A stretch of 64,000 nucleotides of DNA from Trypanosoma brucei (lineage: Eukaryota): contig CP000070.1 in assembly GCA_000002445.1 (NCBI GenBank), forward strand, positions 1,600,001-1,664,000, in the 5' to 3' direction. Made by a program: the position numbers. Shown piece after piece: positions 50,101 through 59,100 of this stretch. Positions within the stretch are counted from its first letter, which is position 1. Every line of letters starts with the position of its first letter.

Positions 50101-53100
50101 GCGAAAACACCTCCACAGTTACACTCCCCCTCCAATTCCACGACAATACCATGGGTGCTTGCATAACCTGCAGTATCACCGCAAGCAGAAACAGTTGCAC
50201 CACAGTGCCACACGGGTAGCCACGAGGTCCCCAAACTGCTCTGTGAGGCATACTACGCGAGCTTAAGCCGCAGACGCAGATACCTTAGTTAACAAGGGAG
50301 TAAAATGAAGTTGGGAGGAAAAACAATTAAAGGCTACTTGTTCCACAGTGTTCGAGCAACAGCAATGCACACGAAAGCAAAAGGAAGGGAGGATAGCATG
50401 GCACCAGTATGGAGTATGCCAAATGAAGAGATTCACGCCAACTTAGAGAATAGTAGGATATATGGCATGGTATAGTCGGAGTCAAGGGGAAAGCACAGCA
50501 CGACACAGACTCGACGCCACACGTCACTCAGCTTGCTAGCACCCTTACACGAAAAGGTCGCCTTACCTGCACCATCCGGTATAATAACTGGCACACCAAA
50601 TGATGCTTTCAGTTTTACCGCGCCGTCTAAATCGCGTGGTGTGTGGCGGCATACCTCCAGACCTTCACCCTTCCTAATACGCTCACCTGCACTCCACCCA
50701 TAGGAGAGGCGTGTACGGATAACCTCCAAGTCAGCTACAATGAATGTGTCTTGCCAGAGAAATCGCACCTATCCATATTGCCACGGCATTCACTCAGCCT
50801 ATCCAACCACTCTCTCTTAGGGCAATTTGCACAATAATACTTCTCGAGGCCCCGTGTAATATCGCGCGCTTGGTCGCCAGCCTAAGGTCGCGCTCTATTA
50901 CAAGCCTGTGCCAAGTTATCAAGGGATATCAATCGAACCTCCTTCGGCACATCGCTCCTGTTAGTACCAGAGGGCACACACATACATTATGATATTGGCT
51001 CCTCGACTCAGTAGCTTCGCCATCGTATTTATGCCGGGTAGGCAGGTAGAGAACCACCGGTATTCTGTTCCGTAGCACATCTTTGCCTGCACCAGTCTGA
51101 GGAAGAACGCCCGAAGCCACTCCTTTCTCGCGCCCCACTGCAACGAGGATAACATGCGCGGCTTCAGCAGCCACAATCTGACAGCCGCCGCCTTACCTTC
51201 AACACGTTTCGGAGATGACCCCCACAGGTTACAAGCTGAGGCCTGGTAGTTTCGGTCTCCTCATCTTCCTTACCTTCGTTTCAGACACTGTGAAACTCAG
51301 TGAGCCTCGCACCAACACATCGTACAATGTGTATCCTCTCTGTTCGTCTGCCGACCCACGCGAAGCAGCCCTTCGACTGTCGACTAACGAGACCCCACCC
51401 ATCATAAAGAATCCAACGAAACTGAGAGATATCCGCCTTCCAGCAAAGTATCGGCATATCCTCCGCAAAGCGGTAGTACTGGATGCCTGACATTCTATTC
51501 AAAGACTTGCTTGGTCGACCCGTTGTCATTATGAACAGAATAGGAACTAACACAGGACTATGTACTACACCACATGTTAGTCCAGCACTCCTAGGCCACT
51601 TGTTGGTTACCCCAACACCGCCTGTTCGGTTGGACACAAACCTACTGATCTATCTTGTGACGTGCAACCTAACGGAATACCCTTCGACTGCGGGGGCGAT
51701 GCGGCTACCGCACACAAAGCCAATTACATGAGCATGATCTATGGACAATATTGCAATGCACAACAATATTTTTACTGCACTTTCGGCTCCAACCAGTTGT
51801 CTCCCGAAGTTCATCGCTGAAAGCTCTGGGTTGAACACAACATACCTCACCTATAACTTCTTATTCAATTAATCAAGAAGCCGTCCACTAATAACCCTCT
51901 TCATCTACCCCGCACATCGCGCTCATCAATGATACCGGAATAACATCACGTCGACACGTGATTTGCTTGGCCCAAGAAAGGGTATGATAATGTTATGCTT
52001 CTTCGCTGCAGGCATTACTCAAAAAAGCTTCAGTAAACATCACGACCCATCACACTTTCACCGCTTTCGCTGCCCTCAGTATACTGCTCTCATCCACCAC
52101 ATATTCACCTAGAGGCCCTCACACGGTGACCGTTGGCCCCGCTATCTAAACCGATTTGTGTGCCATATCCCTCATTCCTAGTGCCTTCACCATTGGTGTC
52201 TACATTACTGGTGTTGTCAATCCCGTTAGATTCGTCTCCGCCTGTACCCACAGCCGTTGTCCCCCGATCGGTACTCAGCAACGGACTGCAAGCACTGAGG
52301 TTAGCAGAAACATCAAATACAATCTACCCACAATTACTATCCAACATATGACTGGCTTCACATCAGTGAAAACAGTGACAAACTATGATATCACATTGGG
52401 CGACTAACAGAATCAGAGGGTGAAAACGAAATGAAGAAATGAATCGAAACATGGAAGTTAACACCTAAGCAGAGGAACTTAGAGCCTACAATAAACAGAG
52501 AATCCCACAACACACACCCCAACAAACAGGCAAAACAGTAATGGGGCACACGGAAAAGAAACGAAGCAACCTGCACGATATTAGGTGACAACAATCCAAT
52601 AAGCCAACAGTGCTTCGGATCGTATACTGCCCACCCACACATACAAACACTCCTGGACTAACGAGAGGGAAAGGTAAGTGACCGGGAGCTGTTTGCCGGG
52701 CATGCAAAGATAGTTTAAAAGACGCAGGTAAGTGGCATCGGCTTACAACAAGAGGGTAGCAGTATATCAATGATGAAAGAAAATATTAAGCAAAGTTCAC
52801 GCGGACGCTCGTGTTAACTATCAATGCGTGAAACGCAACACGAAAATGAAAGCAAGCTACGCTGAGGTAACAATAATCTACATGGACATCAAAGAAAAAA
52901 CATAAGTGTAAGATGGCACGCACCCGCACATGCATTGTAAGAAGTAACATCTTCCAAGTACATTGCCGCGAGCTGCCTCAGCAACATCAGGAGAGGCTAG
53001 AGGTCACCCTTCAGCGACGTAACCTCTACTGTGCTCCGCCGTGACAGGGCCTCAGACGCATCGGAGCTTGCTACAATTTTTTTTTTTAGAATTTTCTTCG

Positions 53101-56100: not shown

Positions 56101-59100
56101 TTGATTGTACAGAGACTTTTTGAACGTTGAACGGTTCTTCAGCCACTCACGGGAGCTCAGCGCCCGCGACAGCATTTCACCGATAATCCACCCATACACC
56201 ATCAGCTCACCATCATCATCATCCGTCAGATGACGATCAGACCTACCATAAAGTGATGCTCCGGAATGAGAAGCAAGGTACGCTTTCATCTCCTTCTGAA
56301 AGCGTTGGATCGCTTGATACTCATTATCCTTGGCGAGTGGGTTCGTTCCCGTGGTGATCACTTCCCCATGAGAATATCCACCACCCCGACCATATGTAGC
56401 ATTTAAGGTTTCGACAACGAAATACTGTAGCGCAAAGGGAGAAAGTATACACGCACCAGATGTACGCTTGTCCTCTAGAAATTTCAGTAGAGCCTTTTTA
56501 CCGTCATCTACGGGATACACGTACAGTATAACAGCCTGCGGATTCGTTGCCGCAAACTGATCCCACTCCCTTTGAAAACCTTCGCTGCTTGCAGATGCTT
56601 CCGTCGAGCTTTTCAGAGCGAATGTGCCACAAAGCCCATAGCCCATCCTAGCCATCGCCTGAACCACAAGTTGGTACTCAGTGTCACCGAAAAATACGCC
56701 TTTTAAATACATAAATCCCAGACACCGTACACGCAGATGGGCAAGGGCATAACGCAGGAGGGCTAATGTCTCAGCGAGTGGATCCACCGAGATAAAGTAC
56801 AAGTTGGGCCGCCACCCTCTAACCGCACCAGAGCCTGTGTACGGAGCGAAACCGATAACCTCATTTTTCGTCAGTAAATCGAGTGATTCCAAAACAGTTT
56901 TGTCACCAAGGGGTCCCAACACAACAAGAATCTTCTTCAGGTCACTGAATTCTTTTAATTTTTGTTCTAATGCTTCATTGACATTTTGCTCGGAAGTGGC
57001 AGGCGCAGAGAAACTAACAGTCACTCCCGGCTCGGTTATATTCTCACGGGCGTGAAATGAAGCAAGCACACCAGTATTAAGAGCCTTTACGGTGCCGTTG
57101 GATACAACACTTTTATGTAGAAGCGAAAATACCTCCACATTTATTTCTTCTTCAGCATTATCGCACAATACCATGGGTGCTTGCATAACCTGCAGTATCA
57201 CCGCAAGCAGAAACAGTTGCGCCACAGTGCCACACGGGACGCCACGAGGTCCCCAAACTGCTCTGTGAGGCATACCACGCGAGCTTAAGCCGCAGACGCA
57301 GATACCTTAGTCAACAAGGGAGTAAAATAAAATTGGGAGGAAAAACAATTAAAGGCTACCTGTTCCACAGTGTTCGAGCAACAGCAATGCACACGAAAGC
57401 AAAAGGAAGGGAGGATAGCATGGCACCAGTATGGAGTATGCCAAATGAAGAGATACACGCCAACTTAGAGAATAGTAGGATATATGGCATGGTATAGTCG
57501 GAGTCAAGGGGAAAGCACAGCACGACACAGACTCGACGCCACACGTCACTCAGCTTGCTAGCACCCTTACACGTTATTATGTTCAACATTGTGAGTGTTA
57601 TGTGACTCTTTGGGATCGGAGAAGTGAGGGAATTATAATTCAACTGCTTTCGATGTGGATGAACGGATGAAAGACGTAATTAAATTATTATATGCCTTTA
57701 CATTTTTGTAATTGCATGCCGCTTTATGTTAATTATTGTAATTTTCGTACACGGAGGCGAAGAAGTATGTATGTCTTTGTAACTTTTTCTTAAACAAACA
57801 GTTGTAGCAGAGTTTGATTTTGTTAACGTTTACTTCCATTTTCATGGTGCCCGTAGCCGTTATTCCGCTGTTTTTCAAACTGCGAGATGGAACATGTTTC
57901 TTTGACCGTCAGCGCCCGCTCCACATTGTATTTAGTGTAATTTTATGCACCAACTCAACGTCGCTACTTCATTTAACATTAACTCATTTGGGGGTGCCCG
58001 CTGAGCCGGTGTACAACCACCAGGCTATTGATTTTTGTGTTGTTGTTAAGTCCTTTACCTCGTGAGAAACGTGCGATCCCGGTGAGGCCTGCACTTCACA
58101 CTTTTTTTTTTTTGGAGCGTCCACAACGATGGTAGAATTTTTTTTCTAATAGTTACCACCATTTCCCAAATAGCCGTCTGGTAATAGGCGTAGTGAAGCA
58201 AAACTTTCGTTAGTCTCTCGCTACTTTACTCCTACGTCACTGGATTCTGTCCCTCCATGTGGTGAAGCTGACACGGTATGCATCATCCACGCAGCACGTG
58301 TGCTCTGTTATCGGTGTTACCTTATTATTGTCTTTCTTACTCCCCCATTTCTACCATGTTTTATCAACCCAATAAACTGCACAGTTGTAACTTTAGACCT
58401 CCCTCCCATCCACCGACGGAAACAACGTGAGCACGGCAGTTTGGCCCTACTGGTGCCGGTGCCGGTGCCGCAAATGGTTTTCGCTTCCTTTCACGTTACG
58501 CGGCAGGTGGTGAGAATTATTGTAGTTGGAGTGGCGAAAAGAATAGGGACACTGATGTGCAACATTGCCTCACATACGCCACCACCTCACCACACACAAC
58601 ACAGAGAAAGGGTTAAAAGAAAACAAAAGATACAAGGCTGCGTCAGCTGCTAGCGCCTTCGACGCTGAAACCAAGTCCTTCTTTGGCGGTGTCGTAACTA
58701 CAAAACTAAGCGAATTCAGAAATAAAGAGGGAGAGAGAGATAAAATAAATACCTCAGTTGACGCGGGCGAATTGGCATATCGGTTGACTCCCGATCTCTA
58801 ATGTGTCCCAAGCAGTGAAAGAGAGGAAATAAATCAACAAGTTACTCTGTATAAACAGGGAGGGAACAAGAAAGTTTGTAAGTGGATGGTGTCTTTGTTG
58901 TAGATTCCTCTCCTCTCTTTCTCCTACTTATACCACCTATTCCCCTTCAACAGGTACTCACTTATTACCTCTTAAGCTACCGTATTAAGACCCCCTTCGA
59001 AGCCTACTTCCCTTGTAGGCGCTCTTTCTCCATTTCCAGAAGCATTTGTTGTTCATCACGCTTAGATACTTTACCTTTCGTAGGCATTTGCTGCTGAAAG

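What the first reader, a model, noticed from the sequence alone, without database searches (positions are those of the whole stretch)
53004..57273. Terminal GRESAG4 copy inactivated twice: nonsense codon plus RIME-like retroposon in the 3' coding region
Copy 5 has a TGG-to-TGA change after …LLRKNSG, truncating the protein at 1170 aa. A ~493-bp poly(A)-tailed element (53077-53569) sits ~75 nt upstream of the original stop. It has the same orientation as the gene, and a 24-bp target deletion replaces the usual target-site duplication. Together these point to recent decay of the edge copy of an otherwise homogenised array. The element may also supply an alternative 3' end or an siRNA target for the array's transcripts.
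Basis: partly seen in the sequence, partly recalled or inferred. Interest (0 to 1): 0.6.

Follow-up and report, generated by a model that had tools for sequence, protein, structure and literature searches.

The report
RIME retroposon in truncated GRESAG4 gene
The first adenylate-cyclase (GRESAG4) gene of a five-copy array on Trypanosoma brucei TREU927 chromosome 7 has a strain-specific premature stop and a full-length RIME retroposon in its 3' end, inserted with a 24-bp deletion instead of the usual 12-bp duplication; this is a tidy but ordinary case in a well-annotated reference genome.

Summary
Copy 5 (ATG 57273, minus strand) has TGA at 53761-53763 where the four paralogues, and the orthologues in T. 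b. gambiense and T. b. equiperdum, have TGG. A 502-bp poly(A)-tailed element lies at 53077-53578 in the gene's orientation. It is a genuine RIME. It is 98.8% identical to a canonical RIME elsewhere, and its two halves match the first 247 and last 250 bp of a 5.26-kb ingi. Both orthologous loci are empty sites that still hold the 24 nt missing here, so the insertion and the deletion are one lineage-specific event. One new detail: the target reads CCCTGGCGAT, identical to RIME nt 1-10. The element is therefore full length, and its 5' end was joined through a 9-10-bp microhomology lying 24 nt upstream of the first-strand nick. "Inactivated twice" is not shown. The 1170-aa product keeps every domain (cyclase 878-1088) and loses only the variable C-terminal tail. 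GenBank carries it as a coding gene (XP_846231.1, inferred to be Tb927.7.6080). The proposed siRNA and alternative 3'-end roles are untested. The locus is already known and of low interest.

The parts
53761..57273 (-). GRESAG4 copy 5 CDS as it now reads: 1170 codons plus TGA. It is an exact match to T. b. brucei TREU927 XP_846231.1/AAZ12672.1. The locus name Tb927.7.6080 is inferred from gene order next to eIF3a.
53761..53763 (-). Premature stop TGA at codon 1171. The change is G to A at window 53761. The four paralogues and both orthologues have TGG.
53579..53760 (-). Former coding tail, now untranslated, between the new stop and the RIME. It is identical to the c2/c3 tail haplotype.
53569..53578 (-). 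Junction microhomology CCCTGGCGAT, which equals both RIME nt 1-10 and the target sequence in c1-c3. c4 and the two orthologues read TCCTGGCGAT, giving 9 nt of match.
53077..53578 (-). Full-length RIME (502 bp including tail) in sense orientation relative to the gene. Element nt n corresponds to window position 53579-n.
53500..53578 (-). The 79-bp 5' signature (Pr77 hallmark) of ingi-clade retroposons. Helices P1, P3 and P4 of an HDV-like fold can be drawn, but ribozyme activity is not shown.
   Evidence: PMC2323293, PMC4035085
53332..53578 (-). RIME 5' half. It is 98.4% identical to the first 247 bp of an ingi in T. b. equiperdum (L002 6993-7239).
53088..53324 (-). RIME 3' half. Together with the A tail, it is 92% identical to the last 250 bp of the same ingi (L002 12002-12250).
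53077..53087 (-). A11 tail of the RIME. The last A (53077) could instead be a target base.
52997..53076 (-). Remnant of the original coding tail (77 nt) plus the original stop TAG at 52997-52999.
33414..33437 (-). Paralogous 'empty site' in c2: the 24 nt that are missing from copy 5. Equivalent positions are c1 26864-26887, c3 39971-39994 and c4 46529-46552.

Best explanation
The window is T. b. brucei TREU927 chromosome 7. Copy 5 is the first gene, in transcription order, of the five-copy GRESAG4 array next to eIF3a (inferred locus name Tb927.7.6080).

In the TREU927 lineage, after its split from the T. b. gambiense DAL972 and T. b. equiperdum lineages (or as a still-polymorphic allele), two independent small events hit the variable 3' tail of this gene.

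(a) A G-to-A transition turned Trp1171 into a stop.

(b) A full-length RIME RNA was copied into the gene by ingi-encoded target-primed reverse transcription. The inferred steps are:
- The bottom strand was nicked at ...GGTTGGT(A)^TTGTAGC..., and the A tail primed cDNA synthesis.
- The cDNA ran to RIME nt 1.
- The top strand was not cut 12 nt downstream, which would have given the clade's usual 12-bp duplication. Instead, the 3' end of the cDNA annealed to the top-strand sequence CCCTGGCGAT 24 nt upstream, which happens to equal RIME nt 1-10.
- The 24-nt flap was removed and the junction sealed.

This microhomology-mediated resolution fits the only end-joining route described in T. brucei.

Result: the gene encodes a 1170-aa cyclase with all domains but without its ~97-100-aa variable tail. 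Its 3' UTR is lengthened by 182 nt of ex-coding sequence, the 502-bp sense RIME and 80 nt of old tail.

Shown: element identity, boundaries, empty sites, lineage specificity, domain retention. Inferred: the order of the strand-joining steps, endonuclease dependence, and any effect on expression.
For: Source of the window: all five array products and the flanking 762-aa protein are exact matches to TREU927 chr 7 proteins XP_846227-XP_846232.

RIME identity:
- The element's ORF hits dispersed T. brucei-group proteins on many chromosomes.
- It is 98.8% identical over nt 1-505 to a RIME in DAL972 (L001). That copy starts with the same CCCTGGCGATG and has a perfect 12-bp TSD, TGAAAAAAGATT.
- A second canonical RIME (L006) has the TSD TTTAATTATTTA.
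- The element's two halves match the two ends of a 5258-bp ingi (L002).
- Element GC is 55.6% against 53.8% reported for RIME (PMC2323293).
- A 12-bp TSD is the rule for Tbingi/TbRIME (PMC3820030).

Empty sites: the alignments to DAL972 (L003) and T. b. equiperdum (L005) run to window 53569 and resume at 53077, with exactly 24 nt between. Both have G at 53761.

Mechanism:
- The microhomology is shown.
- The review of TPRT states that an upstream top-strand break gives a target-site deletion and that microhomology can set the 5' junction (PMC2881922).
- T. brucei end joining is exclusively MMEJ, using 5-20-bp microhomologies (PMC3045614).
- The intact 3' end and A11 tail argue for a primed first step. 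Endonuclease-independent L1 insertions lack the tail and are 3'-truncated (PMC1920257).
- The sequence 5' of the nick (GGTTGGTA^T) resembles that of the two canonical copies (GGATGTC^T, GTGTGC^T).

Domains. Dispensability of the tail for flagellar targeting of ESAG4: PMC6027212.
Against: - No reads or second TREU927 assembly could be examined, so heterozygosity or a base error at 53761 cannot be excluded.
- The published upstream consensus for Tbingi/RIME appears only in figures I could not read. The resemblance of the nick site rests on two canonical copies.
- The order of the two events is unknown.
- No expression or activity data for the truncated product were examined. One scRNA-seq paper lists Tb927.7.6080 as a bloodstream-form marker, but it used another strain.
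- A search for a junction-spanning protein in other assemblies found none. That search sees only cluster representatives, so the negative is weak.
Confidence: 0.72

Rival explanations
1. Endonuclease-independent capture. A spontaneous double-strand break in the GRESAG4 tail was resected, losing about 24 nt. It was then patched by microhomology-mediated end joining that captured a RIME RNA or cDNA, without any ingi endonuclease nick.
For: There is no TSD. There is a target deletion and a 9-10-bp GC-rich microhomology at one junction. MMEJ is the only end-joining route in T. brucei (PMC3045614). Human endonuclease-independent L1 insertions show deletions and junction microhomology (PMC1920257).
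Against: The element is complete at both ends and keeps an A11 tail joined directly to target DNA. The human endonuclease-independent set was defined by 3' truncation and absence of a poly(A) tail. The nick-site context resembles that of two canonical RIME insertions. There is at most 1 nt of homology at the 3' junction.
Confidence: 0.17
2. DNA-level transfer. The RIME-bearing tail was copied into copy 5 by gene conversion from another GRESAG4 gene or allele that already carried this insertion, so the retrotransposition did not occur at this locus.
For: The array is a documented gene-conversion mosaic (PMC1855330). Copy 5's tail is of the c2/c3 type, while the orthologues carry a c4-like junction (GCCATCCTGG).
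Against: None of the other four copies, and no fetched locus, carries the junction. This explanation only moves the original event elsewhere and still needs the same insertion mechanism.
Confidence: 0.08
3. Artefact. The RIME and/or the TGA are assembly or sequencing errors in a repetitive array.
For: Tandem arrays and dispersed repeats are the usual places for misassembly. No reads were available.
Against: Both junctions are clean and unique. The 24-nt loss with a junction microhomology is a biologically coherent signature. The deposited annotation uses the same stop (XP_846231.1, 1170 aa). Flanking sequence is collinear with two other assemblies.
Confidence: 0.03

Closest known systems
RIME (ribosomal mobile element), the non-autonomous partner of ingi in T. 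brucei (ingi4 subclade of the ingi/L1Tc clade)
   Same: The length is 0.5 kb. The 5' half equals the ingi 5' end and the 3' half equals the ingi 3' end. It has the 79-bp signature starting CCCTGGCGATG and an A tail. It is 98.8% identical to a canonical copy, and its GC content is about 55%.
   Different: This copy lacks the clade's characteristic 12-bp target-site duplication. Instead it shows a 24-nt target deletion with a 9-10-nt junction microhomology.
LINE-1/Alu insertions with target-site deletions and microhomology-mediated 5' attachment (Gilbert/Symer 2002; Zingler 2005, as reviewed in PMC2881922)
   Same: The architecture is the same: an intact poly(A) 3' junction, no TSD, a short target deletion, and microhomology at the 5' junction.
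   Different: The clade and host are different. In human L1 the microhomologies are usually 1-5 nt and the elements are 5'-truncated. Here a full-length element is joined through 9-10 nt that coincide with its very first bases.
MMEJ repair junctions in T. brucei (Glover, Jun and Horn 2011, PMC3045614)
   Same: The microhomology is 5-20 bp, GC-rich and close to the break, with a small deletion.
   Different: Those were I-SceI-induced chromosomal breaks. Here one partner would be a retroposon cDNA, which is inferred and not shown.
SIDER/ingi-clade elements in 3' UTRs that modulate mRNA (Leishmania SIDER2; Pr77/HDV-like ribozyme)
   Same: It is a sense-oriented element with a complete Pr77 signature, sitting in what is now a 3' UTR inside a polycistron.
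   Different: No evidence was obtained here for cleavage, destabilisation or siRNA targeting of this transcript. Ribozyme activity of T. brucei RIME itself is not documented in the papers read.

Membership tests
RIME (T. brucei non-autonomous ingi-clade retroposon) | About 500 bp, made of the first ~250 bp and the last ~250 bp of ingi | tested here: met
   The element is 502 bp. Nt 1-247 are 98.4% identical and nt 255-504 are 92% identical to the two ends of a 5258-bp ingi in L002. The definition is from PMC2323293.
RIME (T. brucei non-autonomous ingi-clade retroposon) | The 79-bp 5' signature (Pr77 hallmark) starting at CCCTGG | tested here: met
   At least the first 25 nt are identical to those of the RIMEs in L001 and L006 and the ingi in L002. 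L1Tc nt 1-11 read CCCTGGCTGAG in a published primer.
RIME (T. brucei non-autonomous ingi-clade retroposon) | A-rich 3' tail | tested here: met
   A11 at 53077-53087.
RIME (T. brucei non-autonomous ingi-clade retroposon) | High identity to other dispersed copies | tested here: met
   98.8% to L001 and 93.5% to L006. The ORF hits proteins on at least 7 contigs in the T. brucei group.
RIME (T. brucei non-autonomous ingi-clade retroposon) | Flanked by a 12-bp target-site duplication | tested here: not met
   There is a 24-nt deletion instead. This is a property of the insertion event, not of the element's sequence family. Canonical copies L001 and L006 do have 12-bp TSDs.
RIME (T. brucei non-autonomous ingi-clade retroposon) | Conserved motif upstream of the first-strand nick (ingi4 signature) | tested here: inconclusive
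   The published consensus is only in figures not held. The G/T-rich context resembles two canonical sites, but n=2.
Receptor-type adenylate cyclase GRESAG4 | Extracellular periplasmic-binding-protein-like domains plus a class III cyclase catalytic domain | tested here: met
   PF25495 at 167-309, PF25493 at 461-828, and PF00211 at 878-1088, with scores like those of intact copy 4. Exact match to XP_846231.1.
Pseudogene (non-functional copy) | Loss of an essential domain, or proof that the product is not made or not active | tested here: not met
   All domains are retained. Only the variable ~100-aa tail is lost. It is annotated as coding. Activity and expression are not testable here.
HDV-like ribozyme (L1TcRz type) in the Pr77 signature | Nested double-pseudoknot fold (P1, P1.1, P2, P3, P4) with cleavage 5' of nt 1 | tested here: inconclusive
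   P1 (1-7/31-37, 7 bp), P3 (16-19/26-29) and P4 (45-49/56-60) can be drawn. No 6-bp P2 was found. The MFE fold is not better than shuffles (z = -0.6). There is no Rfam match. Cleavage is not testable.
Endonuclease-independent (break-capture) non-LTR insertion | 3' truncation and absence of a poly(A) tail | tested here: not met
   The 3' end is complete and has an A11 tail. The criteria are from PMC1920257.
Endonuclease-independent (break-capture) non-LTR insertion | Absence of TSD, with a target deletion | tested here: met

The most novel reading that the evidence does not exclude
This filled site and its orthologous empty sites would be a natural record that ingi-clade TPRT can be completed by the parasite's microhomology-mediated joining pathway. 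The clade's TSD is otherwise fixed at 12 bp, and T. brucei lacks classical NHEJ. Under this reading the cDNA's 3' end picks a 9-10-nt match in the top strand upstream of the nick. A further consequence would follow: the resulting sense RIME, with an intact Pr77/HDV-like signature inside the 3' UTR of the array's first gene, would make that one mRNA a substrate for ribozyme cleavage or ingi/RIME-directed RNAi. That would give a strain-specific expression knock-down of Tb927.7.6080.
Probability: 0.35. Interest if true: 0.35.

Novelty: already known. Interest (0 to 1): 0.2.

Why it matters
It matters little beyond good annotation. The locus lies in the T. brucei reference genome. The truncated product is deposited, the array's gene conversion has been published, and RIME is a textbook element.

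Three modest points of value remain:
- It corrects the idea that this copy is dead. It is a tail-less cyclase with all domains.
- It gives a clean filled/empty comparison showing that ingi/RIME insertion can produce a target deletion through a long junction microhomology. That is consistent with MMEJ being the parasite's only end-joining route.
- It flags a strain polymorphism in the 3' end of Tb927.7.6080. This can affect read mapping, 3'-end-based scRNA-seq, and tagging or RNAi designs that use TREU927 coordinates in other strains.

Tried and rejected
- Rfam scan of 52800-53900 at E up to 10 gave only chance miRNA/snoRNA-like matches and no ribozyme family.
- MFE folding of RIME nt 1-79 was no better than shuffled sequences.
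- blastn of the element against the window found no other RIME/ingi copy.
- A full-text search for the RIME 5' sequence in papers gave no hit. The published upstream consensus (Bringaud 2004/2009) is not held.
- Exact look-ups of window proteins in the gene-position index all failed, apparently because the TREU927 assembly is not indexed there. The source was identified through the protein cluster tables instead.
- A search for a GRESAG4-RIME read-through protein in other assemblies returned only RIME-frame ORFs. This is a weak negative, because only cluster representatives are scored.
- I considered that the haplotype switch in copy 5 (c2/c3-like tail, c1/c4-like 3' UTR) coincides with the RIME. 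It does not. The switch lies between 53008 and 52808, downstream of the insertion.
- I considered recombination between two RIMEs as the cause of the missing TSD. I rejected it because both orthologous empty sites are collinear on both sides.
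Full report
**What is there.** The window carries five tandem genes on the minus strand: c1 26783-30586, c2 33333-37142, c3 39890-43702, c4 46448-50251, and c5 with its ATG at 57273. All five encode receptor-type adenylate cyclases, with two periplasmic-binding-protein-like domains and a class III cyclase domain at residues 878-1088. The five products and the neighbouring 762-aa protein (59004-61292) are exact matches to T. b. brucei TREU927 chromosome 7 proteins XP_846227 to XP_846232. 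The window is therefore the reference-genome GRESAG4 array next to eIF3a. This is array 'Tb62, Tb927.7.6080' of Jackson 2007 and 2010, which has five copies in TREU927 and four in T. b. gambiense and documented gene conversion. Assigning the name Tb927.7.6080 to c5 is my inference from gene order.

**Checking the observation: the stop codon.** A five-way alignment shows that c5 reads TGA at codon 1171 (window 53761-53763), where c1-c4 read TGG. The original stop TAG is at 52997-52999.

**Checking the observation: the insert.**
- c5 carries a private insert ending in eleven A's (53077-53087).
- On its 5' side, the target in c1-c3 reads ...CCAATTA CCCTGGCGAT AACGGTGATTTGGCGTCGGTTGGT A TTGTAGC....
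- In c5 the same stretch reads ...CCAATTA CCCTGGCGAT GCCGGCCACC...(element)...TTCTAAAAAAAAAAA TTGTAGC....
- Twenty-four target nucleotides are therefore missing, there is no duplication, and ten nucleotides at the 5' junction belong equally to target and insert.
- 77 nt of old coding sequence remain before the old stop.

The only refinements are the 10-nt ambiguity of the 5' boundary (53568 to 53578) and the position of the old stop.

**Is it a RIME?** No reference library of trypanosome repeats was available, so I tested this against independent copies.
- The element's 121-codon ORF hits 12 short 'T. brucei spp.-specific / hypothetical, unlikely' proteins. They come from many chromosomes of T. 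b. gambiense, T. b. equiperdum and a TREU927 expression site, plus weaker relatives in T. grayi. This is the pattern of a dispersed repeat.
- Fetching the DNA around two of these hits gave two reference copies. One is a 0.5-kb copy in DAL972 (L001), 98.8% identical over nt 1-505. The other is a 5258-bp element in T. b. equiperdum (L002), whose first 247 bp (98.4%) and last 250 bp (92%) match the two halves of the window element. An Exo_endo_phos_2 endonuclease domain is called just inside it, as expected for an ingi.
- That arrangement is the literature definition of RIME relative to ingi (PMC2323293).
- All copies start with the same CCCTGGCGATGCCGGCCACC. L001 and a further RIME (L006) are flanked by perfect 12-bp duplications, TGAAAAAAGATT and TTTAATTATTTA. 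This is the fixed TSD length reported for Tbingi/TbRIME (PMC3820030).
- The element's GC content is 55.6%, against 53.8% published.

The window copy is therefore a full-length RIME. Only its insertion signature is unusual.

**Orthologous empty sites.** I used the single-copy eIF3a gene as an anchor to fetch the same locus from T. b. gambiense DAL972 (L003) and T. b. equiperdum (L005).
- Both align to the window at about 99% up to 53569 and resume at 53077, with exactly 24 nt in between (AACGGTGATTTGGCGTCGGTTGAT).
- Both read G (TGG) at the position of window 53761.
- The RIME, the 24-nt loss and the nonsense change are thus all specific to the TREU927 lineage among these three. The insertion and the deletion are one event.
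- The orthologues read TCCTGGCGAT at the junction, as c4 does, whereas c1-c3 read CCCTGGCGAT. The microhomology available at the time was therefore 9 or 10 nt.

**Mechanism.** In target-primed reverse transcription the bottom strand is nicked and the A tail primes cDNA synthesis. A top-strand break downstream gives a duplication, and a break upstream gives a deletion. Microhomology between the new cDNA and the top strand can set the 5' junction (PMC2881922).
- Here the intact 3' end and the A11 tail abut ...GGTTGGT(A)^TTGTAGC. The G/T-rich context of this site resembles the two canonical sites (GGATGTC^T, GTGTGC^T). This points to a normal endonuclease-dependent first step.
- The 5' end was not attached 12 nt downstream. 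It was attached 24 nt upstream, exactly where the top strand matches RIME nt 1-10.
- T. brucei repairs breaks by homologous recombination or by MMEJ using GC-rich microhomologies of 5-20 bp near the break. No classical NHEJ has been found (PMC3045614).
- The junction is what that pathway would produce if one partner were the full-length cDNA.
- The main rival is capture of RIME cDNA at a pre-existing break. The intact tail makes this less likely, because endonuclease-independent L1 insertions were defined by 3' truncation and lack of a tail (PMC1920257). It is not excluded.
- Transfer by gene conversion from another RIME-bearing GRESAG4 copy cannot be ruled out without the whole genome. It would only relocate the original event.

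**Consequences for the gene.**
- The stop at codon 1171 lies 82 residues after the catalytic domain, and domain scores equal those of intact c4.
- The lost segment is the C-terminal variable region of about 110 residues. An ESAG4 mutant lacking its last 112 residues still reaches the flagellum (PMC6027212).
- 'Inactivated twice' is therefore not demonstrated. The protein is tail-less, and the RIME now sits in the 3' UTR.
- Without the TGA, the RIME would have replaced the last 34 residues by 69 element-encoded ones, with a stop at codon 1306. The order of the two events is unknown.

**Consequences for the transcript.** The RIME is in sense orientation within the polycistron and has a complete Pr77 signature.
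- Helices P1, P3 and P4 of the HDV-like fold described for L1Tc can be drawn.
- No P2 was found, the MFE fold is unremarkable, and Rfam has no matching model.
- The papers read do not document ribozyme or promoter activity for T. brucei RIME.
- Effects on mRNA 3'-end formation, stability or RNAi are therefore plausible but untested. They would concern this copy's mRNA only.

**Novelty and score.** The gene, its truncated product, the array and the element family are all known. The small un-noted detail is the TSD-less, microhomology-joined insertion with matching empty sites in sister subspecies. This is a good worked example of a known phenomenon and not a new kind of system. Interest is 0.2.

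Noticed in passing
window 1-16821 (+): ORFs 1-1050, 2583-4379, 5826-7583, 8813-10609, 12050-13807, 15025-16821: A second tandem array lies on the opposite strand. It encodes alternating 598-aa and 585-aa major-facilitator-type transporters (Pfam MFS_1, Nodulin-like). It is probably the Tb927.7.5930 'PAD' array that Jackson lists as array 61. It converges on the GRESAG4 array.
   Followed up: partly
L003 (T. b. gambiense DAL972 FN554970.1) 14022-17621, around 17596: The orthologue of copy 5 in DAL972 has no RIME and no TGA. It carries its own 1-nt deletion inside a mosaic stretch of the tail, giving a 1199-aa product (XP_011775091.1). This is an independent truncation of the same variable tail in the same edge copy.
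   Followed up: partly
L005 (T. b. equiperdum CM010678.1) 14023 onward; equivalents of window 57044, 57035, 56692: The T. b. equiperdum orthologue has three single-base deletions near its 5' end, putting a stop at codon 79, and no gene was called there. Only one deletion lies in a homopolymer (TTTTT). They may be real decay or long-read assembly errors.
   Followed up: no
window 53579-53740 versus 26900-27060, 33450-33610, 40010-40170, 46560-46720; and 52720-52810: The C-terminal tails fall into two haplotypes, c1/c4 versus c2/c3/c5, including a 6-nt indel. The 3' UTRs group differently, as c1/c4/c5 versus c2/c3. Copy 5 is thus a conversion chimera, with the switch between 53008 and 52808.
   Followed up: partly
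window 33533-34339, 40090-40896, 53664-54470 (+): A 268-codon antisense ORF (TTG start) sits opposite the cyclase-domain/tail region in c2, c3 and c5 only. It is probably a by-product of codon bias in the sense frame.
   Followed up: no
L002 (T. b. equiperdum CM010679.1) 6317-6548 and 6993-12250: The reference ingi used here is preceded, about 450 bp upstream, by an inverted fragment of a RIME/ingi 3' half (89.7% identity). It has no obvious 12-bp TSD, which suggests nested or rearranged retroposons at that site.
   Followed up: no
window 16822-26782: The roughly 10-kb convergent region between the two arrays has no ORF over 212 codons, no tRNA gene (ARAGORN) and no RIME/ingi similarity. GC content rises from about 0.44 to about 0.50 across it.
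   Followed up: partly
literature, Tb927.7.6080: A single-cell RNA-seq study lists GRESAG4 Tb927.7.6080 as a bloodstream-form marker gene. Because 3'-end reads are mapped to TREU927 gene models, the strain-specific RIME and altered 3' end of this copy could influence which array member collects the reads.
   Followed up: no
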